This document shows, one piece after another, positions 6,115 to 44,800 of a DNA stretch of 64,000 nucleotides; position 1 is the first letter of the stretch, and each line of letters starts with the position of its first letter. This stretch comes from Marsupella aquatica (Eukaryota > Plantae > Marchantiophyta): NCBI GenBank assembly GCA_973895155.1, contig OZ316894.1, positions 2,310,457 through 2,374,456 on the forward strand. The letters run 5' to 3'. Under the pieces are notes generated by a model, which saw only the letters and a list, made by a program, of their open reading frames with translations, made no database searches and was not told the origin of the DNA. Position numbers and translations under genes: made by a program.

Positions 6115-9100
6115 TCACTCTCCTTCTCCACATTCGCAATGGCAAATAAGTCCCCTCAAGCACTCCAGACAGTCCACCTGAGAATTCGCTTTGAATCTGT
6201 TTGTACCAGTGTTTTCCTGGACATTAATTTTTTGTGGAAATCTTCCTTGAACGTCATAGATCTCAGACGAGAAGAATTGGTCATCTAAATTGGATGCATC
6301 AGTATCAGAGCTATTCTCCGAGAGCATTTCACATCTTGTAAGAACCTCATTTCCACTGCGTCTGGCAGTGAGTGCTTGAGCTTCTAGTTTCAACTGTAGT
6401 TGTTCAACACAAATGGTGACCTCGTCAAGGGAAGGTCTTTGAAGTGGGTCACGGACAAGTATGAATTTTAGTAAATCCACCACTGGCCCGTAGTTGTCAA
6501 GTTTTGCGGCTTTCTCTTTTGAGATCAGCTCCTGTAAAAATATGGGCAATCAACATGAGCTCTGACTTCAGCTTGGCTTTGAAGAGGTTTTTGAGGCATT
6601 TTGTTCGTTGAGAAAGTTCAGTTCTTTACAAACAAAATACAGATAAGTCACAGAACTAAAACAAACAAAAAACAAAAACTACAGTAGAGTATGCATTACA
6701 GTTCAGCAATTATCATTAAAATACATGCATTACCTGGACCTTAAAGCTATCTACATGGGCGAGGAACGGAACGCGGCGAGTCTATCAAGAAACAGATATA
6801 TACAAAATGTACTATTAAGGGAATAGGAAAAGCAAACCTCAGATGGTAATGTCACCCGCATAAAGAATTGAAGCCAGTCTTCGTCATAGAAAAGGTACTC
6901 CCCGGTTAATAGCTCATAGAGCAAGCAGCCTAGGCTCCAAACATCGACTGCTTTTCCAACACCTTCATCTGTGGTCCTCAAATTGAAATCCGAATCCCTT
7001 TGAGATTGACTACTCAATAACTTAAGCATCTCTGGGCTCTTTACATATTCTGTTCCCCTGTTCCGCACCGTACATTCTCCTCCTAGATGACTTGATGCCT
7101 GTTCCCTCGTGACCAAAGCTTTCAGAAGAATGTGAGTCGCCTGCTTAATGACATTACATAAAAGCAAGAACTACAAAAAGAGAATTGTCAATTTCTCCTG
7201 CTCTTTGGCGCATTTGGTGCTTGTGTCGTTCGTTCCTTGGCCTATTTGTGGATCTATGGAGTTTCAAATGTATTCATTGAGTCTGCATTTAAGGCATCAA
7301 TATCAATTGTGTCTGCTGCCATGGGGGGAATCACAGGCATTAAATTTAGAAATCAGAGTTCTGGCAATGAGGACTAACCTTGCTTTGCCCAAAGTCAGCG
7401 ATGCAGATACGGAATGGCAAAGGTTTTGATGCATCTGCGGGTGGCCATTTGGGGCTCCAGAACTCTGACTCCAAGCCGGAAGAGTCTAGAGGCTCTAGAA
7501 GAATGTTATCACACTTGAGATCATAGTGCACAATATTTTCAATTTCCAATTTCTTGACCTGGAAATAACCATAGAAAGCTCTTGTAGTGAAAATTTCCCA
7601 TGCACCATACTTTTGAAGGTCACCTACTCTTTAATCAGACATTGGGTTTTCAAGGTTGGGACATCACTTTTGCCTTGTGCCCTGTTGAGGTTATAGTGAA
7701 AGAGATAATATCAAGAACCCTCGTGCAAAAGCTTGAGTTCAGTAAGACATGTATATTTTACAGACACTGGTTGAAGCCTCACCGCTTGAAGTATAGCAGA
7801 ATACACCTCCAAATAGAGTGGTAGTTTCTTTAGAGCAAACTTTGAAGCTGCTCCAGCTCTTTGGATCTCAGTTGGTGAAAATTTCTCGTCGCTAGAATTT
7901 GCTCTATGTCCTTGTCTCCATGTATACAGACTACATTTGTAGTGTTTCAGAACCAGAATGAAACTCTCTGTGTCCACGCCATAGTCCAATATTTGGCATA
8001 TTGCAGGCTCGCCCAAAAATTTCTCCAAAATCTCCACCTCGGAATAGACATCAAAAAATTTACAAGGATCGAAGGGTCCTTTAGGAACATCTACAATCTT
8101 TAGCACAACAAGCTCGTCTGTCACGCCCTCCGGTTTGGAAGAGTTTTGCTTTACCTTTGCTGTGTAAACCTGAACAGAAAACTCAGCATATTTAAAGAAA
8201 ATTTCAGGACGTAAACCTTCAACGCTATGAGAAATGATTGAAGAACACTATGCAATTATTGGTCTACTCCAAAGATGCATAAAAAGACCACAAAGCACTT
8301 GCCTGGGCTTTTCTAGAGGAACTTCCCAAAAAATGCAGCCTTGCTAGATGAGTTGCTAGACCGACCTCTTGACCAAAAAGCGCACATCAGTAATGTTAGA
8401 ATACTTTGCTAATATCGGAGACAAGGAAGATCCAGATGGAGCTTCAAACTAGACCCCAAATTGGTTTTTAGTGCATTCGAGGCAACACCTGAGATGCTGC
8501 ACCGCGCGCAATATGAACTCTGTTTGTGTAGATCTTGGGATTAAACAATGCCCTCCAGGTAAGCTTCAAGATTCGGAATGCCCCAGGTTTGAAGTCCTTC
8601 ATCCTCTTACTCAGGCTTGGCAACAAGTAAACATTTGCAACATGATTCAAATCTGGTGGGTTTGATCAAGTTCAGGAAAACAGCTCTCGAAATCATTGTC
8701 ATATATTTTAAAGATACCCATATGAATATCGCCACTTTCGTTAATCTATTCATTCAATAAAATTGGTTAAGCTATCCTTGTGGAAAGCCATAGACAATTT
8801 CCAAATCTCCCAGAGATCCAACCCGAGCCTTATGCAGCTGATGCGTTGTTAAATGATTGGTAGGATACGGTAGGATAGAAAGAATGGAGCATTCAACTTG
8901 CGATTCTCCATCGGATACCTGTCACTGTAAGACGTCTCCAATGTTCCTCTGCAGTTGAAAGAGAGAGAGTTCCTTCAACATTTGGCTTGCACCAGAAAAT
9001 GTCTTGCACGACAATTAGTCATTTATTTCATTATGGCCAACAGTGGTGCTTCGTCGTTGTAAGCGCTATCGTATAATGTTAGCCCATTCCGAACGGCACT

Positions 9101-21553: not shown

Positions 21554-22432
21554 ATGTAAAGAAAAATAATAATGAACAGGAAAGTTTAAGTTTATGGTAT
21601 TGGGATAATGTACATAAGTAGAGATACTTATATACTTACTTTAGATAATGACAATCAAAATAATTAAAAACATAAATTTAGGACACAAAACCGTGAGTAG
21701 TATTTAAAGACATAAGGTGTGCACGTTATTTAGATCATTTCTTCTGTATTCATGAGAATAAGGGCTAGAAATTCAATGAGCTTTGTTACAGGGTGGATGA
21801 TCTTAAAATATAGCAAAGATTTTTTAAAAAATTAAAGGGGTGCCAGAATAAATTGGAAATAAAAAGTATGCACCTTGGTAAGACACATTTAAATAAAAAT
21901 ACATAACAAAAGAAGTTTGAATAAGACAACATACTGAAAACCATATTAGCAGCTTCAAAACAATCAGCTCGGCTCAGCTCTGCAATCATCACTCGATCAA
22001 TCAGAACATCAGACGTGCCCGACTGACCCACGACGCAAAATTCCCAACTCACAGAACGAAGAACCGATCGAGAAGAAGGAAGGAAGCGCAATGATCGGTG
22101 GGACACCTTATCTTCATGCTCACCCGCCTTCCAGCTCCATTCCATTCCATTCCCATTACTGTAGGCTGCACAGCTTTCTTGCTCAATCGGTCCCCCCTCC
22201 TGTCCTCTTCTGGACCAGGTCTCATCCAGCCCACCTCCAACCCACAAAATTCTGCTGCTAAAAGCTCTCGAGTCCCGACATTGGTGTGAGATCCCGAGAT
22301 CGCGAGCTCATCCACATTCCAGAGAGTTTTTCGGAGTCCTTGTCAATCCTTGCGTCACTTCCAATCTACCACTGCATTTGCTCCGTTTCTGAGTTGAGGT
22401 TGCTCTGTTTCTGAAAGGAGAGAGGAGAAACG

Positions 22433-23848
22433 ATGGGGTCGGTGGCGGAGTGGGGAAATGCGTCCCTCGAGGAGGTGGACACGGAGATTTTCAACCTCAT
22501 CGAGCACGAGAAAGGGCGTCAGTACAAGGGCATCGAGCTGATTGCATCCGAGAACTTCACCTCGCAGGCGGTCATTGAAGCCCTCGGCAGCGCCCTCACG
22601 AACAAGTACTCGGAAGGGCTCCCGGGGGCTCGCTACTACGGTGGCAATGAGTTCATTGACCAGATCGAGAACCTCTGCAGAGCGCGAGCTCTCAAGGCGT
22701 TCCACCTCGATCCGGAGAAATGGGGTGTCAATGTGCAGCCCTACTCTGGATCCCCTGCCAATTTCGCAGTCTACACCGCTCTCCTGCAGCCCCATGATCG
22801 GATTATGGGCCTGGACTTGCCGTCGGGTGGCCATCTCACGCACGGGTACTACACATCTGGTGGGAAGAAGATCTCTGCCACTTCCATCTACTTCGAGAGC
22901 TTGCCCTACAAGGTGAATTTCGCCACCGGGTACATTGACTATGACAAGCTCGAGGAGAAGGCTCTGGACTTTAGGCCCAAGATGATCATCTCGGGAGGGA
23001 GTGCCTACCCGAGGGATTGGGACTACAAGAGGTTGAGATCTGTAGCTGACAAGGTTGGATCTCTGCTGATGACTGATATGGCTCACTTCAGCGGTTTGGT
23101 GGCAGCTCAGGAGGTGAACAACCCGTTTGAGTACTGTGACGTTGTGACCACTACGACCCACAAGAGTCTGAGGGGTCCCCGAGCTGGAATGATCTTTTAC
23201 AGGAAGGGGCCTAAGCCACCGAAGAAGGGGCAGGCTGAAGGGGCCCAATATGAGTATGAGGACAAGATCAACTTTGCCGTTTTTCCTTCACTTCAGGGGG
23301 GTCCTCACAATCATCAGATTGCTGCACTTGCTGTCGCTCTGAAGCAGGTGGATACTCCGCTTTTTAAGGAGTATGCCAAGCAAGTGAAGGCCAATGCCAA
23401 GGCTGTTGGAGAGGCTTTGATGAAGAAAGGGTACAATCTCGTGACGGGGGGGACAGATAACCATTTAGTGTTGTGGGATTTGAGGCCGCTGGGTCTCACC
23501 GGAAATAAGGTAGAAAGGGTCTGTGAATTGGCCCACATTACCCTCAACAAGAATGCTGTCTTTGGGGATAGTAGCGCTCTTGCACCCGGCGGCGTGAGAG
23601 TGGGTGCACCGGCAATGACATCCAGGGGGCTGAAGGAGAAGGATTTCGTTCAGATTGCTGACTTCTTGGAGCAGGCAGTGAACATCACTCTTGCAGTCCA
23701 GAAAGAGCACGGAAAGCTGCTTAGGGATTTCAACAGAGGTTTGGTGGACAACAAGGATATTGCGGCCTTGAAGGATTCTGTAGAGAAATTCGCATCCTCG
23801 TTTGACATGCCCGGGTTTGATGTCAAAGCCATCAAAGTTCCAGTTTGA
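22433..23848 (+). CDS. SHMT: Serine hydroxymethyltransferase, cytosolic clade (SHM4-like), 471 aa, intronless CDS
   Basis: Motifs [39 protein letters not shown] (PLP lysine), LQGGPHN and [13 protein letters not shown]. There is no transit peptide. Confidence 0.98.
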
Positions 23849-26546: not shown

Positions 26547-28298
26547 CTACCAGCACCCAGGATCTTTAATAAACTCTGTAGGATTGTCAAACAATCTGTG
26601 CTTGGGTGGGAGACAACCTCGTCGATGCCACCAATCAACCAATGTTTCTTCCAGTCTTCTCACCTGCGAATTTGCACAGACAAATTTAATATCAAAGGGG
26701 AGTGAAAGTTCAGTGCTGACCATTCTGGGAAATTGTGCAACTTATTAGAGTCACGACTCTGGAAGGTATTGTGGTTGAGGCCTTACCCGCTTCACCATGA
26801 AAGGTTCTCCACGTAAAGTTAGTGGAGCTAGACGAATTGTCAACAAACCATTATTATTTCCGTAGACAACGTCAGTGAAGTACCTATCTCCAACCTGAGG
26901 CAAAGACAGTCGTCGAAGTGCATTAGATTTCATTTCTTCCCACTCGAAGAACGTAAAGGGAAACTCCTTATGAAGGGACTTCTATCTTTAAGCAGGGTGT
27001 GTCCGTCCACTGAAGCAAATGTCAACGTGATCTAGTAGACCATGATCCAATTTTGTAGCAAAGGTGACGACATGCATCCAACAAAGAGCTCACCATGACC
27101 AACATGGAAGGGTCACAACTGAAGTAGTTGGAGACAGCAAGTGCATTCCCAGCAGGCTTTTTCTGACCTGCGCTTTCCAGTAAAAGTAGTAAGGCTCTAC
27201 AGTAAACTGAACTGAGCTATTCACTGTCCATACAAAAATGCAACCTCACATTCGTTTGAACAAGCTCTCAGCTACTTGGAAGCTTCTTCATCTTTTGTGG
27301 CGGTTTTCCTAATACGTCTCCAATCCCCTGAATCTCTCCCACGGTTCTTAAACTCAATTCGAAAAACAAACAGCTCCAATTCTGTAAAAGATACCGGGCT
27401 AGCTCTTCTTCACAAACATAAAGAGTTTCATGAAAAGGTACCATGGCGGATCACTGGGATGCCAAGCCTATTCTCCACGAGCTTTGCTTCAGCTCCATCC
27501 GGATCATATTGGTATAGACCTGCAAACCTAACCATTCAAAATTTATATCACGAGAGGAGAAGATCTAGCCCTGTTTCGTGGCAGAAAACTGAAAGAAAAC
27601 CTGTCTAGAAGGTGATAGCACGACTAATTTTACTCAATCAGTGGCTTCAGGCAAAGTAAAACAAAGACTCGCAGAATGAATTCAATGTGGTTTTGCACCA
27701 TGACCAAAGACACACAACTCCAATCAATCAAGTTAACCTCAATCCGAGTCAATTTAATTCAAATCTCTAAGCACAAAAATAAAGCAAATCATTCATTTGT
27801 TTCTCTATACTTTTGGTGCTGAGGGCAGATATAAAACCAGATATGACTACTGTAAGGGCATTCGTTCCTTTATTTCTCTCAACTTCTGTATGGCTATTCG
27901 CTTTAGGTCCCTTCGTCCGAATGACGCAAATTCTCCAATTAGGCTGATCAGAAAACCCACCGGCAGAATTGCTCAGCAAAGCAATGCGCCCTCCGAAAAC
28001 CTCCCTACATTCCTCCAAAGAATCAGTGAGAGGGGGCCAGATGTTCTGCCCAAACGGAGCTGTAAGAGTATTGTCTTTGTCGAACAAAATGCCCTCGAAT
28101 CCCCTGATTCGCAACGCCTTCCAATCAATCCAAGAAATATCCGGCACGCTGACATGCGGAATCGCCAAATGCCGGTCCTTGACGATCACCCTAGCTGAAA
28201 AGGATACCCCTGAGACATTGACATTCTGTGCCAACTTTCTCCACAAGGACTTGCCTTCCATGCTGCTTACAGGATCTGCATGAGGACCATCAGCATTG

Positions 28299-28380
<82 letters not shown>

Positions 28381-28723
28381 CACTAGGCTGCTGGGCTTCG
28401 GTCAAGAATTCCTCTTCCTTCAAACTGGCATAACACCCAACTCCTCCTATTCCCCAAAGACCATCAGCAAACCTAGATTTCAGCCCCTTTCTAGAATTGG
28501 CCGCACCATCCACCCTTCCGTCCAATCTAATCCCCTTTCCGCCTCTGGTGCGATCTCCTATCAATCCTCCTGGTCCTGTTAAGCCTCTACCATGGCTCTG
28601 ATACTCAAAAACTGCTGCAGTGTTGTTGCAGTGCTGCAAGACAGGGTTTAGAGTAGAAGAGGACGACGAAATAGCAGAGGATGTGAGAATAGAACGTGAG
28701 ACAACAGCGTGGTGAAGGAACAT
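26547..28723 (-). CDS. PGPP1: HAD-superfamily phosphatidylglycerophosphate phosphatase (PGPP1/Gep4/YqeG-like) with an organellar targeting extension
   Basis: Exons: 28723-27961, 27519-27442, 27167-27094, 26894-26787, 26663-26547. Motifs: FDKDNTLT (DxD motif I), LLSNSAG, RHGQKKP, MVGDRYFTDVVYGN; the protein ends ...FIKDPGCW*. Confidence 0.92.
28297..28380 (-). repeat. Compound microsatellite (AGC)n/(AGT)n encoding a poly-Ser tract in PGPP1
   Basis: On the plus strand, a run of (ACT) repeats is followed by a run of (GCT) repeats. It translates as SSSSSSSSSRSSSSSSSSSSSSSSSSS. Confidence 0.95.
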
Positions 28724-29374
28724 TGCTGAATCCTGCCTGAACGGTAGCAGAACGTCTATACCAGCCAAGCTAGGAGCACACCCTGTCCATGTTGAAGGAC
28801 ATTGCCTGATACTTACGTTCCTGACCGCAGATGTTCCTGAATTTCCTCCTCGGCCCACATGAACTACCAACTACCCAACAACTGGAAACGAATTGCTGAA
28901 AGAACGCGTTCTGAAGTCCAAGATCTCCCAAAGAAGACGAGAAGAGGAATTGGAAGAGGAATTGGAAGAGGGAAGAAGAAAATCTATCCACTTTCAACCG
29001 ATGCTTTTGGTTTTAGGGAGACGGGTCTCGTTGAGGGAAATGATTTTGGAAGAGTGACTTGTGATGAGTCAAAGCTGTGGACACATGTGCCAAAGCTTCG
29101 CGAGTTCTGCAAGAGATTGCACTCGAGCGATGGAGAATTGGAAACGGGACTGCCAGAGTAAGGTAACACACATGCAGACTGGGATTGACTATGGCTATGA
29201 GCAAGCTTGTGACAGAATAACAAGCCAATTTGGGGAGCACAAGCTTGGATAGGATCTCAATCTCTAAGGTCACAATGGATGATCAAAAATGTCCATTTTC
29301 AAGTTGAGTAATGCTAGAGAGAGTAGTCTTAGTGACCATCGTGTACTGTTTCGTCACACTCCTATGGAGTTTTC

Positions 29375-30433: not shown

Positions 30434-32289
30434 GCAACCAGCAAAAAAAGGAAAGGGGATTAAATGGCATTCCCTTCTCGAATTGTTGAAGGCTATGTAC
30501 CATGTGTAATAGGGGCTGGGTGATCTCCAATTTGGGATGGGAGTTGGTGTTTAAGGTAGCCACATGCAGGCAATTTTGAACATGGGGAGAACGCTTGCCT
30601 CTGCATGCAAGCTGACATCACATGTTATGAGCACACTAATTTAATGTTTGAGCATTGGATGGATTGTTCTTGCAACAGTGTGAGTGGGGCAGGATGCAAT
30701 GGGTTTAGGTTGGGGAGTGAGTTGGAGAGGGGGGAGGAGTAGATGCTACTTTGAAATCTAGGGTAGGGTCTGGGCACAGGAAGTAGAAGTTTAATGTAAG
30801 GACATGTTGTTAGTGTAGAAAACCACTTGGCACAAAATATGGTTTGCAGAAAGAGGCAAAAATAAAGATTTGCAAGAGTTGACATAGCAAAATGCAGTTT
30901 TTTTAAGTTTAGTTCTTTTGCCCTCTTAGTGGACTCCAGGCTTTGTGGCTCTTTCTGTCATCCTTGGGTTTATCCATAGTCCCCCACAGCCATTTTTTGG
31001 CGGGCAAAATTTAGTCTATCATTTACCTAAACACAGGCAGGCTAATGATACTCGGGCTGAAATTTTAAACATTATGTTTCATTTGCCACCACCTAATGCA
31101 CTATGGGGGAGTGTTAGGCAGGGAATTCTCTACAATAGTCAGAAAGTACTCTATGATTGAAAGAAATACTCCATATTCAGACATGTGCTTGTCTGTAGGG
31201 TAATTTAGTAGCCACTTTGGCTAATGTTTAAAAACAAGAAAATAATGGCTGGTCGCCCCCTGAGGGGAGTGTCAGCACCACCACCTATTGCACCAAAACA
31301 CAATATTGCTGTTGATCAAGGATGTTGTCCACTTTCCAAAGTAGAATCGACTAGTTTCATGGTGATGGATCACCATGCTTAAAAATAAGAAACAATATGC
31401 TAATCCAGAGTTGCTCTCCTTCCAATCCGCAAAGCTCCTGTTCTCAGCCACATAGTCAAACAAAGTTGCCCCACAAATTTGATGGGTTCCCACTTTTCTT
31501 GGCTTCAATTCGGATGGCATTGCCTGCCACGTCCAGAGCAGCTTCCAGCGCTCTGTTACTCTACAAATAGTCAAGCTACTACTGTACAGTTCAGATCTCA
31601 AGAAGAAAGTGTGATTGCATGGTGACCTACAGTTTCTGGCTGATTGCCCACAACAACCTCTCCACGGAAGTATGCTGATTTGGCGCTCTGCCATGTTGAG
31701 CTACCACCGCTCCGATACATTCCTCCAACATTTTCTATGCGTGTCTCATGATTGAGATCCGCCCTCCCCACCCAGCTCAACTTTACTCAACCAACTATCT
31801 CTCTTTCTCTCCCGCTCTGTTCCTCTCAGGATGAAATCAATTCAGTAGTCTACTGAATTGTAGCTCCACCACCGACATTGGCAGGATGACAGTGTTGCAA
31901 CTGCTGAAGTGGCAGCCTAATGTGGGTGTTTGAGTTTTGGAGTTTGTCTGCAACCTTACTAGCACCTAGTGTGGCTGGCATTGGATTCCAAGCTGGGCAT
32001 TTGTTTGAGAGCGATCGAGCCAGGGCAGAAGGCTAGAGGTAGAAGAAGTCCGTCTTGGCAGCTAAGTATTTGGAGACTAGTTTTCGGCCCGGATTGAGAA
32101 GAGATTGTGAACTCAGATTCATCTTCAGTAGAGGAGAATTGCAGTTTAGGCGAAAGAGTAAGAGATCAAGAAGCAACAAGTTTCACTTGCGATTGAGTTG
32201 AGATTCCTGAAGCAAGGAAGGGGAGGAAGGAGGAGTGAGTGGGTTGGTTGGTGGCCTGGACGGGAGGTCCGACTAGCGAGCTGTTCAAC

Positions 32290-35200
32290 ATGGCGACGTC
32301 AAAGTCCATGATCGTGATGCAAGCGAGGAACGATCTGCCTCACGTCTGGCGCGGCCCCCTCATGTCTGTACCGCTGGAAGAACCTCTCTGTACGTACCTG
32401 TCCTCTTCTTCCCTCCTCTTCCCTCGCCTTCCCTCAGCTTCCCGTTCTAGCTCTCCCCAATTCCCTCTCCCCAATGTGCTAAATACATCAAAATTGTCGA
32501 AATTCTAAATTGCTAGTCAATCTGGGGAAGAAGCAACTTCACCAAAAATTTCGCACATTTACAGGTCTGGCCAGTTTTTCCGTGACCAACGCTTTTTAAA
32601 GGGAAGAAGGAGAAATGATTGGGTCTTCTTTTGGCCCAAACGGTGCAATGGTGCACCGATTAGCCCACAACGATGAATTCTCTCTCTCCCTTTATTCGAT
32701 TGTATGCGAGGAGGATCACGGAAATCCCTAAAGCCATTTTCGTTGGAGCTATTCAAAGACTCGGCCTAGATGTACAGTAGCTGACGCGCCTCGCTAATCA
32801 CATGTTGGCACTGCTTTCAGTCGTGGTGGTGGGAGGATGGTCACGATGAAGTTTTGGTTTATTGGAAAACGGTTCACTTGTATAGCGGGTAGTCAAAAAT
32901 CATTGGGAGACGTAACATCTCGCGCCTTTCAGTGACGTTTCATACGTCTATCTCCTCTCCATGAGATGATTGGCATTGTCAAAGACTTTTTTGTTCCGAT
33001 GACCTCCTTCAAGTTAGCTTTTCAGTTGAACGCGATGAAAAGGGGAAACTGTGCTCAGGAGGATATTCCCCAAATTGCAGGTTTTAAGTTTCTAGTCCAT
33101 CCGAATGGGCATGTGGATCTGTCACATCCCCCCGTAACCTTATCATATCTCCAGAAGTAAAGCACCAACTGGTTCCCGCCCACAGCCAAACTGGTTGATT
33201 CACAATTCAATATTCAGCCGAATGGGTCACTCAATTCTCGACTTTGAGGCCTTCTTGTAGTGAATTTTGGTACGCTGCCCTGTCAGCTGCATTAGGGCCA
33301 AAGTGGAAGGTATCCCCCAGAGAATCGGTGAATCTCTGAGTTTCAGAAATTTCCTCATGCAACTTAGCCAATCACTTTACACACAACGTCCAGGCTGGAA
33401 ATTTCAATCAAAAACTCGCCCTCCTCACTTGTTCTCAGGGACACGAGCAGGATTGAAGGATATTGCCCCATACGATATAACCAGACCGAATTCTTTAGAG
33501 AAAGAAATTGAATCCTTAAGGTTTGAGCGCTTCTTCAGGCGAGGAAGGCAAGCAAAAAGATAAAGCTGACATGGCGTCCCGTCAACAGCTGGTTCAATGT
33601 GATGCTCGGAAGAACCTGCCTAATGTGTGGAGATCGCCTCTGGCATCCACCTTTCAAGATGCTCCCTTGTGTGCGTGTCTAATTCTCTTCTCTTGTTGCT
33701 GTACACTCTCCAAGGCGGTCCTGTCACTAGAAAGCCATACTTCCAAGAGTTTTTATTAAGTTTGATGGATAATAGGCAGCGCTATCGCAAAAAGACGAAC
33801 ACATTTGTCGTCCAAAATGTGGTAGTTTCAGTAAAAGTATACAAAATTACATGTCTTGAATGAATCAGGAAACAAGATTCAAGGCCCGATCCTGAAGCCT
33901 ACTGAGATCTTTTCAGACGTCAGATGTAGACTTTCCTATCTTCTAAACAGGAGCGCCATTTTTTTATTGCCGGCCCGTATGGGCATCATGGGTATGGGTA
34001 TTTCTGGGATTTTTGTCTTCCTGCCACACGATTGGAAATTTCATAAAACAAGAATGGTGATGGATGGAGCTCTAACCCTTCGACTGAGGCTAGGGTTTAA
34101 GACCGGAGGATGATTACTCTGCTGTCCTCCGTGCTCAATTTAGAGACCTCGCGTGTTGAGGAATCTTATTTTTGGACATTTTTAGCCACGGCAAAGAGTT
34201 TGCCAATTGAATCTAACCCAATTCAATGACCGTATTGAGCAAAATCTTATCAACCGGGGTCTGGGACACCATTTGTTTGGTCAGCGTCAATGAACTCAAA
34301 TTGGATTTTCAAATAGATTTTCATGGAGCATGGTATTTTGAGTTTCAGTAAAGCTATCCTGATCATGTCTCATGAGCTATCTTCCTCGAGTAGTGTCAAT
34401 CCTTAAGTTGCAATCTTAGAAGCTTCACATGTTTGGGAGAGCTAAGTTGTAATTTGCTGATGTCTGTTCCATTTTGATTATATTCAAATCACGAAACCCA
34501 CTATGTGAAGAGAAAGGGAGAGTTGTGTCACACCATAATATAGGTCTCACTGGGACTGTTTGCCCTTCACACTACATCTGTATTGTCAGTGGCAACAGAT
34601 AGCAAGAAAATCTTAATCTAATTGAAGGCTGTGTTTTTATGCTACAGATTGCTGCTACACCGTTGTGTGGTGCGTTGACAAACCAATCTCAGCGAGCATA
34701 TTCAATTCATCTCCTTTTCAGCATGGCACCTTCATTAGCATTGCATGCATTGATTGCCAGTTGCATAAATGTTCTTGTGTGGAGTCCCTCCAACTACATC
34801 TTCTTGCGGGTCCTCTGCGCATTACCTAGGTCAAGAACGTAGAAAAGGCATTTGAATTCTGCTATATCTCACTGAATTTCCCTGTCAATGCAGCCCTTAC
34901 TGTGCTGCATACCAGCTGCGGGGCCGGGCATTACGTGGAGATTGGTCCCGGTTAGTGTTTTCACTTGTTTGAGATTTTAAACTACCGTTCTGTCTTCTGA
35001 GTGCTTCTGGTCCACGTTGGAAGGTTGTCTCATGCTCCCGTTTGTGGTATTCTCGCTTTCAGATTCACTTGCTGTGGAGGCTCTATGCCCTGTAGTGGAA
35101 GTTGTGGTGAATCAGAATGTCCCAGATTTTGTGCAGGTGTGGAGGTAAGTTGCAGTCCTAGTCATAACCCCCAGTTCTCCAAGATCGTCTCGCTACCCTT

Positions 35201-37234
35201 CAATTACTTTCTTTGTGGTTATTTGCGGGCATGACTCTGGCTTTCTGCTCTTTTGTCTTTTGTCAGGCATACTGACCCTCGTTTTCTGTCGATTGTGGAC
35301 TCTTCAAGAATGACTAGATTGCGATTTGCGTGCCTTTAAAAGGCACTTCGTGAGATTTCCTCTGAATTTCCGCCTCCTTGTCAGGGAACATCCTTTGTAA
35401 GGACTCTAACGACGTCTATGGTGCAGGCTGTGCTTTGCTTCCAATTTTCAGTAGCTACAACAAGGTTCCAGCTACAAGACCAGCTTCGAATTCAGAATAC
35501 CAAATGCGACAATTGCATAATTGTACATTCCACTGCTACTCGTTACATCCATGGATTGCTTATTCCATATCAACAAAATCTTCTTGTCTGTTAATTGATT
35601 TGATTTCGTGTTTCTTGGGGGTAGTGTCTTCAGGAGTAGTAAGTGCCAAAGCTAGAGTGCATTAGCCTTTCGTGTTTGTGCAGCTATATGAATTTTGGTA
35701 AACTTGGATATGATGTTGGTGAATTTGCGCCTCTTTTGGCGCAAGTCACTGCTCTTTTTGGCCTTGGACAAGCATAAGTAAAACAGTACGAAAAGAAGGG
35801 AGTTCAAGGAACTAGTCCCCAAGCGCACCACAATCAGAGCGCCCGGGTGAGAGCAAGTCTCTGCTGTTACTGTTACGGATTTCCTGTCGTGGCAGTCCAG
35901 AAGGTTTTTGGTACTAACTTTGATGTACACTCTCACTTGTAATTTTATCAATGACACTGTAAATTTCTGGTATCTACAGGGGACCATGTTCTGGTTACAA
36001 TACTTGAACTGTATCTGCTCAATAGTTGCGTGCTTGACTGACAGTCCAATCATCGATGAAGCGTCCATCATTACGGATAGAGTAGCAGACATTGCATACT
36101 GCAGGTAATACCAGATTCTGATGGCAGCTTTGCTAAGAGACAACAAATGCAGTTTGATTTTTGTTCTCAATTGGTCTGAGTAGCGCAACCATACTTCATC
36201 TGTTTGACCCAGTTTGGATTGGAAGCAAAGTATCACGTAATTCAAAGAAGGGATTGCATTATTCCCTGCAATTTCCTTCTCTTGCTCTTATCGTAGATTC
36301 AAGCAGGTTTCCATCCTTTGCTTCAACAGAAAAGGTTAGAATTGAAAGTTCAAAAGTTACTAATATCAGGGGTGTATCCCAACCAAGGACTTAAGTGTAG
36401 ACAAGTTTTCGATGAGTTGAGCACTGACATTTGCTGTCATGTTTTGATGTGCTGTGCAGTGTATGTGCATGTATGCAGGTAAGCACCAATTGCTATCCTC
36501 TTGTGACCATAGGAACAATTACACTAGTTTCTCTGGAATTGTGCTTTGCCCTTTTGACTGCACTGTTCCAATTCATGGAGTAGGCATGTCATAAACCCCT
36601 GTGGTGAATTTTCGTTTGTTAGTCCGTGTAAGGTTCTCAGGCAATACCCTGCGGGTCTGTCCACGGAACCCCTGTGCTAGCCTAGCCTGGGGATTCTCAA
36701 ATTTGAATGAGAACATGCAAGTGGCAAACAATTAGTCAGACAGTTTTGCAGGGTAAGAGTGAACTGAAAGTTTTCAAACTTCACTTGGGGCCTTACCGCA
36801 CGGTCACTCATCCCCACTTGGGGATCATGGCCTGTAACCGCCTCTTGCTCAACGCCTTCGGGGATTCCATCCCGTTACCCCCTCTTGGGGATGGGTTACC
36901 CTACACATTATTTCTCAGTGATTTGTCATTGAGATTGATATGAGGTCATCCTCCTTTGTCTATGTGCGTGAGAATACAAACAACACTGGCCCAACTACAG
37001 GGTACATGCATTGCTGTTCTTGGCTCTGCAATGCTGTATATGCTCCTATACGTCAGCCTTATCATTTAGTAAGACTGAAGATGCAACTGACTTGAAAGCT
37101 CTGTGGGTTGCTCTGATTGTGTCTGATGGCAGACTCAACACAAGTTGCAGATGGATGAGAGAGATGGATTAATTCCTCCCGTCCAAGGAACAACTATCCG
37201 GACACCTCCCCCTCCAATGGAGATGAGGAAATAG
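32290..37234 (+). CDS. PLAC8-family cysteine-rich protein, isoform using distal first exon 1a
   Basis: Exons: 32290-32389 (1a), 34648-34669, 34894-34950, 35063-35144, 35427-35522, 35980-36104, 36460-36478, 37133-37234. Spliced sequence: YCCYTVVCPYCAAYQLRGRALRGDWSRFTCCGGSMPCSGSCGESECPRFC...TRFQLQDQLRIQNTKCDNCII...VCACMQTQHKLQMDERDG. This matches the plant PLAC8 subfamily with the CCxGxMPCSGxCGE motif. Confidence 0.88.
33571..33670 (+). CDS. Alternative proximal first coding exon (1b) of the PLAC8 gene
   Basis: MASRQQLVQCDARKNLPNVWRSPLASTFQDAPL, then T|GTGCGT donor. It is exactly 100 nt and phase 1, like exon 1a. Confidence 0.85.
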
Positions 37235-41800: not shown

Positions 41801-44800
41801 TTTTGTGCCACTTCCTTCCGCGATGTGAGGGATTATCGCTGGTTCATCAACATCCTGAAAAACGTCCAGCAACCACAGACAATCATGGATCTGGAAACAG
41901 ACACAATAGGAAGTTTGGATAGTTCACTCAAGATCACTCTCCTCTCTTCATAACAAGATATGATACTGCTTACAGCTGTCTTATCGATCTGATCCCATAC
42001 CTTCAGAACCAACGCACGGTCTCCAAGAGAAAACACAGCTGCTTTGTTCTTCAACGGCTCTTTGGCTCTAGAAAAGAGCCCTCCGCTCCTTTGGACAGCA
42101 TCCTCAACACCAAGCATATCATTCCTTGTAACAATGTCCAACTGCAACCTTTCAAGGGCTTGGATATAGCTACGAAAGTGAGCACTAAGTACCTGTAGTT
42201 CGGTAAGTGTTTCCAAGTTAGGGAAGGTGAGCAGCATTGATAAATCATCTTACCAAGTAAATACGCGGAAACTGTCAAGTTCCCTACCTTGCTCATAGTG
42301 TCAACATAAGCCATCCGAATCTCTGGGTACACTTCTTTACCATGTTCTCGTAAAAAGGTCGCTGCATATCTGCACGGAATAAAACACAGCATCAAATTCA
42401 AGGACGTCGTGTGAAGGACTAAATGTCAAAAATCAAAATCCCCGTCCAAGTCCTTCGCTTTATGTACAGAGAATACCAGTGTTGCTATCACCATCATGGC
42501 ATACCGAATGAGTCAATGACGAATGCTTAACTCTATAAAGCTCTATGCAAAAACCAGTTAGATCAAATCTTTCTGCCCTGGTAGACTGATTTTGAAAAGT
42601 CTACCATAATCTGTTGATTAGGATTCCCAGCTCGTGACCTCGTTACAGGCACTGCGGATTCCTGATCAGTAGCAATACTATGGAAATGTACGGAGATGTT
42701 TACACGCAAATCAATGAAGATAAGCAGTGACAATGTGCTTACTTGTACTTCAAAAGCACATTCTGCTGCAAAATTTGGATATTAGTCTTAGGCCTCCTCA
42801 AAGCGTATAACTTCTGCAACAAAAACTCACGAGTCTGCCAGTAGAAAGATGAGAAGGTCATGTCGGTCATTTTACTTATCGCTACATTACTCCACATCCG
42901 TACTGAAGCAAATACTTTGGTGTAAGGAAGGGGAATCAATCTAGGAAGTCACCTTGGCAAGGGCTTTGGCACGAAGTCTCTGAAGTTCAGGTGCTACATC
43001 TTTTATAGCTGCTGAATCTTTAGATACAGAACTATCCGCAAGGTATTGCAGCTTCTTACTCAAAACCTTGAGGACATTCAAATACTCCTCATTCACCTGC
43101 AATTTCCGTTTACTTCACTTAAGCTACAAAACATCAACGATAAGGCAGTTCCGATAAACAAACCAAACAAAAGGAAGAGAATTCTATCCATGTATCTCAA
43201 TCGCTTCTTTGAGCGTGTCCTACTTTGAGATCGGCATTCTGTAAGCAAATCACAATTTGCAATTGTCGTAGCTAAAGTCACTGAAGGACCTCAAACTTAG
43301 ATGCTTGAAAGAAGGGATGCTTACCTCGCCATCTACAATTGTGTCGATCATGTTTGGAGAAACCACTACTTCTTCTATAAATTGCGATAACTTCAGTTCA
43401 GCTGCCTGCAAAACACCACCTTCAGATATGCTAGATGGCCCAAAATGATTTTTTAGGCAAGAATCCAGGAACGAAAATAAAAACGGACGAAGAAAGAAGA
43501 AGAAAGATAAAACGAACAGAGAGCAGAGAGCAGAGAGCGGAGAAAGAAGAGGAATAACGGTTCTCGTTTCGTCAAATTATTAGAATTTGAGGAAGCCATA
43601 CTGAATGCAAGGATAGCTCAATAGTCGTGGCTGCGATAATAAACTGGCTAATTAACGGGCAGAGAAACCACTAATGTCTGACCTAAGACGAAGATTAATT
43701 GAAAAGGAACTGCTGAGAGTACAAATATGCATAGTTGGTGGCAGGAAGCCTAGGTAACAGAAATGACCTTGTAAAAACCTCAACCGTTGCCCTTCTGTAA
43801 TAATGAACGTAACGAGCAGAAAACGTAACGAGAAGATCGAGGCGGTATCGGGAAGGTGGAAAAACTCATACCCGACGATTCTTCAGTTTTAACCCCATAC
43901 TCATCGATTGTTCTTGGAGGCTTTTGATCTCAGAACTGATTGACCCCAAGTCCGCCTCCAAAACAGAAATGATCCATCAGCGCAATTTTGTAATGAAAAT
44001 AACATATAATATTGGCTCTCCCTCCAACTAAAAGGTAAGAAGGATGGCAACGAGATCTTCCAAGTAGTGAAAACCAAAGGCGCCATACCTGAAAACCTCC
44101 TAACAGTGCTTCCATTTCGGTCAGTATAGTGTCACATTCTCGTATCTGAGTATGAAGGGACACCAGATTGTCGCTCTCCTTCATGTAGTCCTGAAGAAAT
44201 AAAAGTAACAACTATTACCAACGCAAGAAACAAACGCATAAAGACAAACAGCTCTTGATCGGTTCTCTGCAGCTAGCGAATGCTCATTAAGCTCATCTTT
44301 GAAACTCTTTCGAAAAAGTCCAATGGTCCAATTCTAATATTATCCATCTGATGTAGCGGTCGATTCTAAGCGCAAATGCAAGACTTGAACGTTGCATATA
44401 CCTAAAACAGTGATAGGCATAATTGTCCCCAGCGTCTTCTTAGATTTAGTATGTTGTCAGTACATCAAAAATACCTGTATAGATTCCAGTTCCACAAGCC
44501 GGAGCTTCTCCTCAACATCTCGGGCATAGTCTCTAAGCTGACTCCCCTGCCCTAATATGTTGGCCACTATCTGCACGTACCAAAGAAAAGTTTTACTCCA
44601 CACATGCATCATGACATCGATCAATACCCATTCAGAAATGTGAGGACAAGTTTTGGGAGATAATGCGATGCCATTCTGCAAGATCAATTTGCTAGTACGT
44701 CTAATTTGCTGAAAAGACCTAAGGACTTCATAATCTGTGTTTGTGTTTGCTTGAATTCACAGACTACAAGCACACTCCCCTTGGTCCTGGCATACCACAA

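What the first reader, a model, noticed from the sequence alone, without database searches (positions are those of the whole stretch)
32290..34669. PLAC8 gene with two paralogous, mutually exclusive first coding exons (swappable N-termini)
Seen: two ATG-initiated exons 1.28 kb apart, each exactly 100 nt and ending in phase 1 at a good donor (T|GTACGT, T|GTGCGT). They encode alignable but strongly diverged peptides, MATSKSMIVMQARNDLPHVWRGPLMSVPLEEPL and MASRQQLVQCDARKNLPNVWRSPLASTFQDAPL (shared MA..AR..LP.VWR.PL......PL). Only one set of downstream exons exists, starting with a 22-nt microexon at 34648, and either first exon joins it in frame. Known: this segment corresponds to the conserved N-terminus (..R...xxW...L) of this PLAC8 subfamily. 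Inference: an old exon-plus-promoter duplication kept under purifying selection (no indels or stops, many substitutions), giving two tissue- or stage-specific isoforms from one locus.
Basis: partly seen in the sequence, partly recalled or inferred. Interest (0 to 1): 0.8.

Follow-up and report, generated by a model that had tools for sequence, protein, structure and literature searches.

The report
Liverwort gene with twin first exons
A liverwort gene for a PLAC8-like protein carries two old, diverged copies of its first coding exon in front of one shared gene body, as does a predicted protein of the leafy liverwort Calypogeia, and likely uses them from separate promoters to make two proteins with different front ends, a design well known in animals but seldom documented in plants.

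Summary
Observation confirmed. Exons 1a (32290-32389) and 1b (33571-33670) are both 100 nt, start at ATG and end in phase 1 at GT. They share 14 of 33 residues, and each joins one set of seven downstream exons into an open 200-residue frame. Synonymous sites are saturated, yet both exons stay equally close to single-exon orthologues, which points to long purifying selection on both.

New evidence: a Calypogeia fissa gene model holds a 1a-like start followed by a 1b-like exon. The copies pair by type, not by species (7 sites to 0; AU p 0.02). Marchantia and the moss and Selaginella proteins show one such start. The duplication therefore predates the split from Calypogeia.

Limits: no RNA was available, so junctions, promoters and tissue specificity are untested. 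Only 18 residues of the Calypogeia upstream copy are visible, and it may be decaying. The PLAC8 label is below Pfam's cut-off.

Best reading: alternative promoters on duplicated first exons (0.70), not mutually exclusive splicing in the strict sense. The kind is known (39-40 human cases; 26 predicted exons in Arabidopsis); my searches found no liverwort case.

The parts
32290..32389 (+). First coding exon 1a (33 codons + 1 nt), upstream copy
   Evidence: ATG, GT donor, open frame; keeps 11 of 15 positions conserved in 12 single-exon orthologues; 10 of 18 identical to the start of Calypogeia model P0154
33571..33670 (+). First coding exon 1b (33 codons + 1 nt), downstream copy, with Cys10
   Evidence: ATG, GT donor; keeps 12 of 15 conserved positions; 19-20 of 33 identical to Calypogeia P0154 residues 45-77 and P0021 residues 1-33
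34648..34669 (+). Exon 2, 22-nt microexon, shared; encodes the start of the Cys-rich motif
   Evidence: AG/GT ends and open frame; matches the Marchantia protein P0001
34894..34950 (+). Exon 3, shared
35063..35144 (+). Exon 4, shared
35427..35522 (+). Exon 5, shared
35980..36104 (+). Exon 6, shared
   Evidence: 88% identical to Mp5g00340 over 41 residues
36460..36478 (+). Exon 7, 19-nt microexon, shared
37133..37234 (+). Exon 8, coding part with stop codon, shared
31798..31829 (+). Pyrimidine patch ending in CAG upstream of 1a: candidate core-promoter patch or acceptor of a leader intron (untested)
   Evidence: sequence; patch found; three ATGs (31831, 31886, 31920) lie between it and 1a
33417..33480 (+). 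Pyrimidine-rich tract ending in CAG (33438) and a TATA-like ATATAA (33475) upstream of 1b: candidate own promoter or acceptor (untested)
   Evidence: no ATG between 33439 and the 1b start

Best explanation
The gene holds two paralogous first coding exons before one shared body, and each is likely transcribed from its own promoter and spliced to the 22-nt exon 2, which would give two 200-residue proteins that differ only in their first 33 residues. Shown: the exon pair, the single body, both open frames, saturated silent sites with a conserved protein pattern, and a Calypogeia gene model with the same two copy types in the same order. Inferred: the ancestral single first exon (kept in Marchantia, mosses and Selaginella) was duplicated in tandem after the split from Marchantia and before the split from Calypogeia. 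Also inferred: a transcript started upstream of 1a removes 1b inside its first intron, and one started between the copies contains only 1b. Predicted from a model of the Marchantia orthologue: the exon-1 peptide is part of the folded domain, so both copies keep the structural residues (R13, L16, P17, W20, L24, P32) and differ most in the N-terminal helix (residues 4-11). There 1a is more hydrophobic and 1b is polar with a Cys shared with Calypogeia. The likely gain is separate control of expression, possibly with different membrane attachment or partners; both are untested.
For: Exon pair and chance test. Open frames, single body, pS 0.90 (saturated) against pN 0.45. Equal closeness to 12 single-exon orthologues, mean 15.5 of 33 for each copy; 11 and 12 of 15 conserved positions kept. 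Indels in non-exon DNA occur at 11 per 35 substitutions, so a copy that was neutral for 0.2 changes per site would stay indel-free with probability about 0.002. Calypogeia model P0154 begins with 18 residues that are 10 of 18 identical to 1a and 6 of 18 to 1b (0 of 100,000 shuffles reach the score), then has a 1b-like exon. Of 18 columns 7 group by copy, 0 by species and 1 crosswise. AU tests reject species-wise clades, p 0.024 and 0.017. The gene body groups with Calypogeia at 100/98. Met1 of 1b is kept in both species, and the second Calypogeia model P0021 starts there. Model of P0001: helix 4-13, mean pLDDT 78-85 over residues 11-30.
Against: No transcript was seen for either junction or either start. 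The Calypogeia evidence is one ab initio-like protein model without DNA. Its upstream copy is visible only to residue 18, has a long branch (0.74 against 0.12) and has lost three conserved residues. Its next residues can be read as the 1a continuation in a shifted frame at 5 of 6 positions (367 of 20,000 shuffles, window chosen after looking; 6 of 15 is not significant), so that copy may be frameshifted. Alleles in two related DNA runs show one silent and one replacement change in each exon, which gives no sign of constraint at this depth. No promoter similarity between the copies is detectable. The exon tree has only 33 columns, and neither copy pair is starred (90/79 and 94/91).
Confidence: 0.7

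Rival explanations
1. 1a worked for most of its history but is now silent or decaying; only 1b is used.
For: The Calypogeia upstream copy is fast-evolving and may be frameshifted. Gene model P0021 starts at 1b only. No RNA is available.
Against: In the window 1a has its ATG, donor, length and frame intact, and is as close to the outgroups as 1b. Start and donor are unchanged in the alleles of two related runs. Loss would have to be recent.
Confidence: 0.11
2. One promoter and a shared non-coding leader exon lie upstream; 1a and 1b are internal exons chosen by true mutually exclusive splicing.
For: Each copy has a pyrimidine tract ending in CAG upstream (31829 and 33438), which could act as an acceptor.
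Against: Such patches also fit plant core promoters and leaders (own knowledge). The 31829 site would put three upstream ATGs in the 1a leader. 1b has its own TATA-like element at 33475. The 1.2-kb spacing gives no steric exclusion (inference), and no convincing long pairing arms were found.
Confidence: 0.1
3. 1a is spliced onto an acceptor in front of 1b, so both are in one transcript, giving either a protein with a doubled N-terminus or an upstream frame that regulates translation of 1b.
For: 5 of the 10 in-frame AG sites between 33300 and 33570 give an open frame through 1a, 1b and the body, the best at 33539. The Calypogeia model P0154 is drawn this way. Joining to 33439 gives a 74-codon frame that ends just before the 1b start (sequence).
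Against: The linkers show no similarity between the two species beyond the last residue. P0154 holds only 18 residues of 1a. Met1 of 1b is kept in both species. All other orthologues inspected carry one copy of this segment. The predicted fold has room for one such segment (inference).
Confidence: 0.07
4. The upstream copy is an assembly artefact or a chance likeness.
For: None found.
Against: The copies are only 46% identical in DNA. One contig of run X1 covers 31222-34493 without a difference, though X1 may be the source sample, and two runs of another study cover both exons. Chance tests gave 0 of 100,000.
Confidence: 0.01

Closest known systems
[quoted passage not shown] GCNT2, KCNAB1; PMC8373072 and PMC9741552, passages read)
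   Same: Duplicated homologous 5' coding exons before a shared body, giving homologous alternative N-termini by promoter choice; 39-40 of 236 human events are of this type, and most events are old.
   Different: Those have annotated transcripts; here use is inferred. This case is in a liverwort and the swapped part is only 33 residues.
Clustered protocadherins and UGT1A (PMC8373072, passages); chelicerate sDscam (PMC4835542, search listing only)
   Same: Variable first exons spliced to constant downstream exons.
   Different: Those have 9-21 large variable exons that encode whole domains; here there are two 100-nt exons.
Predicted homologous initial exons in Arabidopsis (Kassiopeia, PMC3923563, passages)
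   Same: Same design in a plant: 26 predicted initial exons, 4 of them annotated, ascribed to multiple promoters.
   Different: Those are preliminary predictions in one species; the passages read give no cross-species conservation. Here the two copy types are traceable in a second, distant species.
Marchantia polymorpha Mp5g00340 / MARPO_0078s0034 and its moss and Selaginella orthologues (short PLAC8-like subfamily without the Pro-rich tail)
   Same: Orthologous gene body, 79.5% identical to Marchantia over 166 residues; same 33-residue first segment.
   Different: One such first segment only. The second annotated Marchantia protein (P0002) has a short, non-homologous start, probably from the intron before the microexon (inference).
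PLAC8 / FWL / PCR family (Pfam PF04749)
   Same: Cys-rich motif after a W-x3-L segment; weak Pfam hits over residues 20-122 in relatives; UniRef names the relatives 'PLAC8 family protein'.
   Different: Scores of 15-17 bits against a cut-off of 34.4; 19 of 85 relatives hit at E<=0.1 and the Marchantia and Calypogeia orthologues do not. No function can be transferred.

Membership tests
Duplicated alternative first coding exons (N-terminal tandem exon substitution) | Two homologous 5' coding exons in tandem | tested here: met
   14 of 33 residues, score 74 against next best -4, 0 of 100,000 shuffles
Duplicated alternative first coding exons (N-terminal tandem exon substitution) | Each has its own start codon and a donor in the same phase, in frame with one shared body | tested here: met
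Duplicated alternative first coding exons (N-terminal tandem exon substitution) | No separate gene body for the upstream copy | tested here: met
Duplicated alternative first coding exons (N-terminal tandem exon substitution) | Both copies conserved across species | tested here: inconclusive
   Both types present in Calypogeia model P0154, but the upstream copy is visible for 18 residues only and may be broken there
Duplicated alternative first coding exons (N-terminal tandem exon substitution) | Transcripts with each exon alone, from separate start sites | not testable with these tools
   No RNA holder listed; only DNA-like contigs could be laid
Mutually exclusive exons, strict sense | Internal exons flanked by a shared upstream exon, chosen by splicing | tested here: inconclusive
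   Candidate acceptors at 31829 and 33438 exist, but no leader exon can be identified without RNA
PLAC8 (PF04749) | Score above Pfam's gathering cut-off of 34.4 bits | tested here: not met
   Tested on orthologues, not on the window's spliced protein: P0001 and P0154 no hit at E<=1; P0004 14.9 and P0073 17.4 bits; 19 of 85 hit at E<=0.1, best 2.5e-4
PLAC8 (PF04749) | Same fold as PLAC8-domain proteins | tested here: inconclusive
   Atlas: TM 0.43 to a PF04749 cluster, feature score 0.87 to a cluster with 26% PF04749; no solved relative found
Short bryophyte-lycophyte PLAC8-like subfamily (Mp5g00340 group) | Gene body groups with Mp5g00340 and apart from the long Pro-rich subfamily | tested here: met
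   Liverwort group 92/88; the long subfamily forms its own clade at 100/99

The most novel reading that the evidence does not exclude
A switchable N-terminus that arose once in the ancestor of a large group of leafy liverworts and still works in many of them: two promoters put either a hydrophobic helix (1a) or a polar, Cys-bearing helix (1b) on the same Cys-rich protein, sending it to different membranes or partners in different cell types or generations. It would be one of the few plant cases of a deeply conserved homologous-exon swap.
Probability: 0.3. Interest if true: 0.7.

Novelty: new member of a known kind. Interest (0 to 1): 0.5.

Why it matters
Homologous-exon swaps are the class of alternative isoforms most often found to be old and translated in animals (PMC9741552, PMC8373072; passages). 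In plants they are known mainly from predictions (PMC3923563; passages). A liverwort case with cross-species support shows that a plant gene can diversify by duplicating only its first exon, and it gives a simple test case: two junctions, two starts, 19 differing residues. It also shows that automatic annotation misses the design, since the Calypogeia models either fuse the copies or drop one. The protein's function is unknown, which limits the payoff for now.

Tried and rejected
No whole genome is held for this window. RNA search: no RNA holder listed, 4 DNA-like runs from 2 studies; their contigs show no splice joints, as expected for DNA. A metagenome scan with a liverwort-type exon-6 pattern gave 1 match, which is not a homologue (best tblastn E 0.17). 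A protein search with the first 110 residues of P0154 returned only P0021 (1 of 2 candidates), so no third liverwort could be examined. A local scan of all 307 proteins then held found the 1b type only in Calypogeia (top 40 rows per query inspected). Fold searches of the Marchantia model: no Foldseek match at E<=0.001 and best Z 7.8 to generic helical hairpins; the profile search of solved structures found only a Pro-rich tail match. The repeat scan of 31300-34700 gave no convincing pairing arms or duplicated promoter. Literature: 0 papers hold 'Mp5g00340'. Searches for PLAC8 with Marchantia, exon duplication in plants, duplicated alternative first exons in plants, Calypogeia fissa and liverwort duplicated exons listed no report of this gene structure; I read only listings for most hits. 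Supplements of three Marchantia reproduction papers: no entry in two (one long file each, possibly cut when stored), and both transcripts listed without significant change in the third. A link to motile sperm was considered from the subfamily's range but found no test. bioRxiv supplements were closed and may hold expression data. Earlier findings by sequence, by relatives and by words gave nothing on this gene.

Full report
Observation. Exon 1a spans 32290-32389 and exon 1b 33571-33670. Both are 100 nt from ATG to a phase-1 GT donor. They share 14 of 33 residues and 46 of 100 bases without gaps; identity by codon position is 15, 23 and 7 of 33, and the flanks are at background, 25 of 100 and 24 of 101. 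Of the 30 stop-free ATG..GT stretches of this length in the window, 1a scores 74 against 1b and the next best scores -4; 0 of 100,000 shuffles reach 74.

Gene model. Seven downstream exons follow: 34648-34669, 34894-34950, 35063-35144, 35427-35522, 35980-36104, 36460-36478 and 37133-37234. Either first exon gives an open frame of 200 residues with them (my first coordinates had small errors in the later exons, corrected there). Nothing like exons 2, 3, 4, 5, 6 or 8 lies between 1a and 1b (exon 7 was not tested), so 1a has no body of its own. The neighbours are a PGP-phosphatase-like frame on the minus strand near 27.8-28.9 kb and VPS52 exons on the minus strand near 41.8-43.6 kb (4 of 23 frames scanned had clear Pfam hits). 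No plus-strand coding gene was found close upstream that could own 1a.

What the gene is. Exon 6 is 88% identical to Marchantia polymorpha Mp5g00340. The shared body is 79.5% identical to Marchantia and 70.7% to Calypogeia fissa. In a tree of 26 proteins chosen from those I held, the body groups with Calypogeia at 100/98, with Marchantia as sister. Earlier notes on this genome also call it a leafy liverwort (unchecked notes). The gene belongs to a short subfamily with mosses and Selaginella. The five angiosperm rows in the tree, a fern, Mesotaenium and a second Calypogeia gene form a separate clade at 100/99. Databases name the relatives 'PLAC8 family protein', but Pfam gives no hit for the Marchantia and Calypogeia orthologues and only sub-threshold hits for 19 of 85 relatives. 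It is PLAC8-like, and no function can be taken over from PCR, FWL or MCA proteins.

Selection on both copies. Between 1a and 1b the silent sites are saturated (pS 0.90) while pN is 0.45. Against 12 single-exon orthologues both copies average 15.5 of 33 identities, and they keep 11 and 12 of the 15 positions conserved in those orthologues. In two related DNA runs the non-exon part of 32230-33760 shows 35 substitutions and 11 indels in 1331 bases. At that ratio a dead 100-nt exon would stay indel-free over 0.2 changes per site with probability about 0.002. So 1a was coding for nearly all the time since the duplication. The alleles themselves are uninformative: one silent and one replacement change in each exon, no indel in either (1.65 expected), starts and donors unchanged.

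A second species. Calypogeia fissa has two models of this gene in the collection. P0021 starts with a 1b-type exon, 20 of 33 identical to the window's 1b. P0154 has the same 1b-type exon at residues 45-77, but begins with 18 residues that are 10 of 18 identical to 1a and 6 of 18 to 1b. That score (51) is not reached by 100,000 shuffles. Among 1031 ATG-started 18-mers of the window, the best after 1a itself (90) and 1b (34) scores 16. Of the 18 columns, 7 group by copy, 0 by species and 1 crosswise. Trees that force the two window copies together, or the Calypogeia copies together, are rejected (AU p 0.024 and 0.017), though the alignment has only 33 columns. One duplication before the two lineages split is the simplest reading. 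Marchantia's annotated proteins show one such exon; its second protein has a short unrelated start. The moss and Selaginella proteins inspected have one copy, but their DNA was not seen, so unannotated copies are not excluded.

The main caveat. The Calypogeia upstream copy is known only from a predicted protein. It breaks off after residue 18, just where the next codon (Val, GTN) offers a false donor, which would fit a whole exon that the predictor cut short (inference). The following residues can also be read as the 1a continuation in a shifted frame at 5 of 6 positions (367 of 20,000 shuffles; not significant over 15 positions), which would mean a frameshifted copy. Its branch is long and three conserved residues are lost. 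The duplication is old either way, but 1a may not be working in Calypogeia.

How it most likely works. Each copy likely has its own promoter. A pyrimidine patch lies at 31798 upstream of 1a, and a TATA-like element at 33475 upstream of 1b; neither is evidence of function. A transcript from the upstream promoter would splice 1a to exon 2 and lose 1b in the intron, and one from the inner promoter would carry 1b only. An AlphaFold model of the Marchantia orthologue (mean pLDDT 81, pTM 0.75) shows a helix at 4-13, a short strand at 18-19 and a helix at 24-30, with block pLDDT 78-85 over residues 11-30. The exon-1 peptide is thus predicted to be part of the domain, which explains the shared R13, L16, P17, W20, L24 and P32. 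The copies differ most at residues 4-11: mean hydropathy over 4-12 is +0.59 for 1a (+2.19 in Calypogeia) and -0.69 for 1b (-0.7 to -0.9 in Calypogeia), and 1b carries Cys10 in both species. Different membrane attachment or partners are a reasonable guess and untested. No solved structure resembles the model beyond generic helices.

Rivals. 1a may have fallen silent recently (0.11). A shared non-coding leader may be spliced to CAG sites at 31829 or 33438, making true mutually exclusive exons (0.10). 1a may be spliced in front of 1b, for which 5 of 10 in-frame AG sites give an open frame, or may act as an upstream frame (0.07). An artefact is excluded by contigs and chance tests. No RNA run was listed, so these cannot be told apart here.

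Comparison with what is known. Duplicated 5' coding exons with alternative promoters are an established class: 39-40 of 236 human tandem exon substitution events are N-terminal, and the protocadherin and UGT1A clusters are larger versions (PMC8373072 and PMC9741552, passages). By strict definition they are not mutually exclusive splicing. In Arabidopsis 26 such initial exons were predicted and 4 annotated (PMC3923563, passages). Two reviews of plant splicing gave no plant example in the passages matching my terms (PMC10095807, PMC6581706). PMC8049495 (passages) counts PLAC8 proteins in Marchantia and does not name the three Arabidopsis identifiers I recalled for this family. No paper in the library holds 'Mp5g00340' in its main text, and searches listed no report of this structure in a liverwort; the library lacks most subscription papers.

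Verdict. The feature is real, old and under selection, and it is a new member of a known kind. It is weaker than claimed on use and regulation, which are untested, and the protein's function is unknown. Interest 0.5.

Noticed in passing
window 22415-23848 (+): A 477-codon uninterrupted frame with a full serine hydroxymethyltransferase match (E 1.5e-191), GC-rich, in a genome whose neighbouring genes are intron-rich.
   Followed up: no
window 27767-28870 (-): Frame with a PGP-phosphatase match (E 4.6e-18), on the opposite strand and head-to-head with the PLAC8-like gene.
   Followed up: no
window 41833-43576 (-): Exons of a VPS52 gene, converging on the PLAC8-like gene.
   Followed up: no
window 31030-31255 and 36660-36910: Two short high-copy repeats (contig depth 20 to 100 times the flanks), one upstream of exon 1a and one in the last intron; some contigs join the two, so they may belong to one element family.
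   Followed up: no
window 32204-32228 and 33531-33555: A 25-nt purine-rich stretch 72% alike in the leaders of both exons; may be a trace of the duplicated leader or chance.
   Followed up: partly
window 32230-33760, runs X3 and X4: Each run holds contigs identical to the window and contigs about 2-3% different at the same places, as expected of a hybrid, polyploid or mixed sample.
   Followed up: no
window 34648-34669 and 36460-36478: Two microexons (22 and 19 nt), both encoding Cys-rich motifs; Calypogeia model P0021 ends at the point where the second should begin, so annotation likely misses it.
   Followed up: partly
tree: The short subfamily holds liverwort, moss and Selaginella proteins, while all five angiosperm rows tested fall in the long Pro-rich clade; this range resembles that of plants with swimming sperm. 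Untested.
   Followed up: partly
window about 7500-7600 (-): A translated stretch that looks like a protein-kinase catalytic loop appeared among weak tblastn rows (motif recognised from recall).
   Followed up: no
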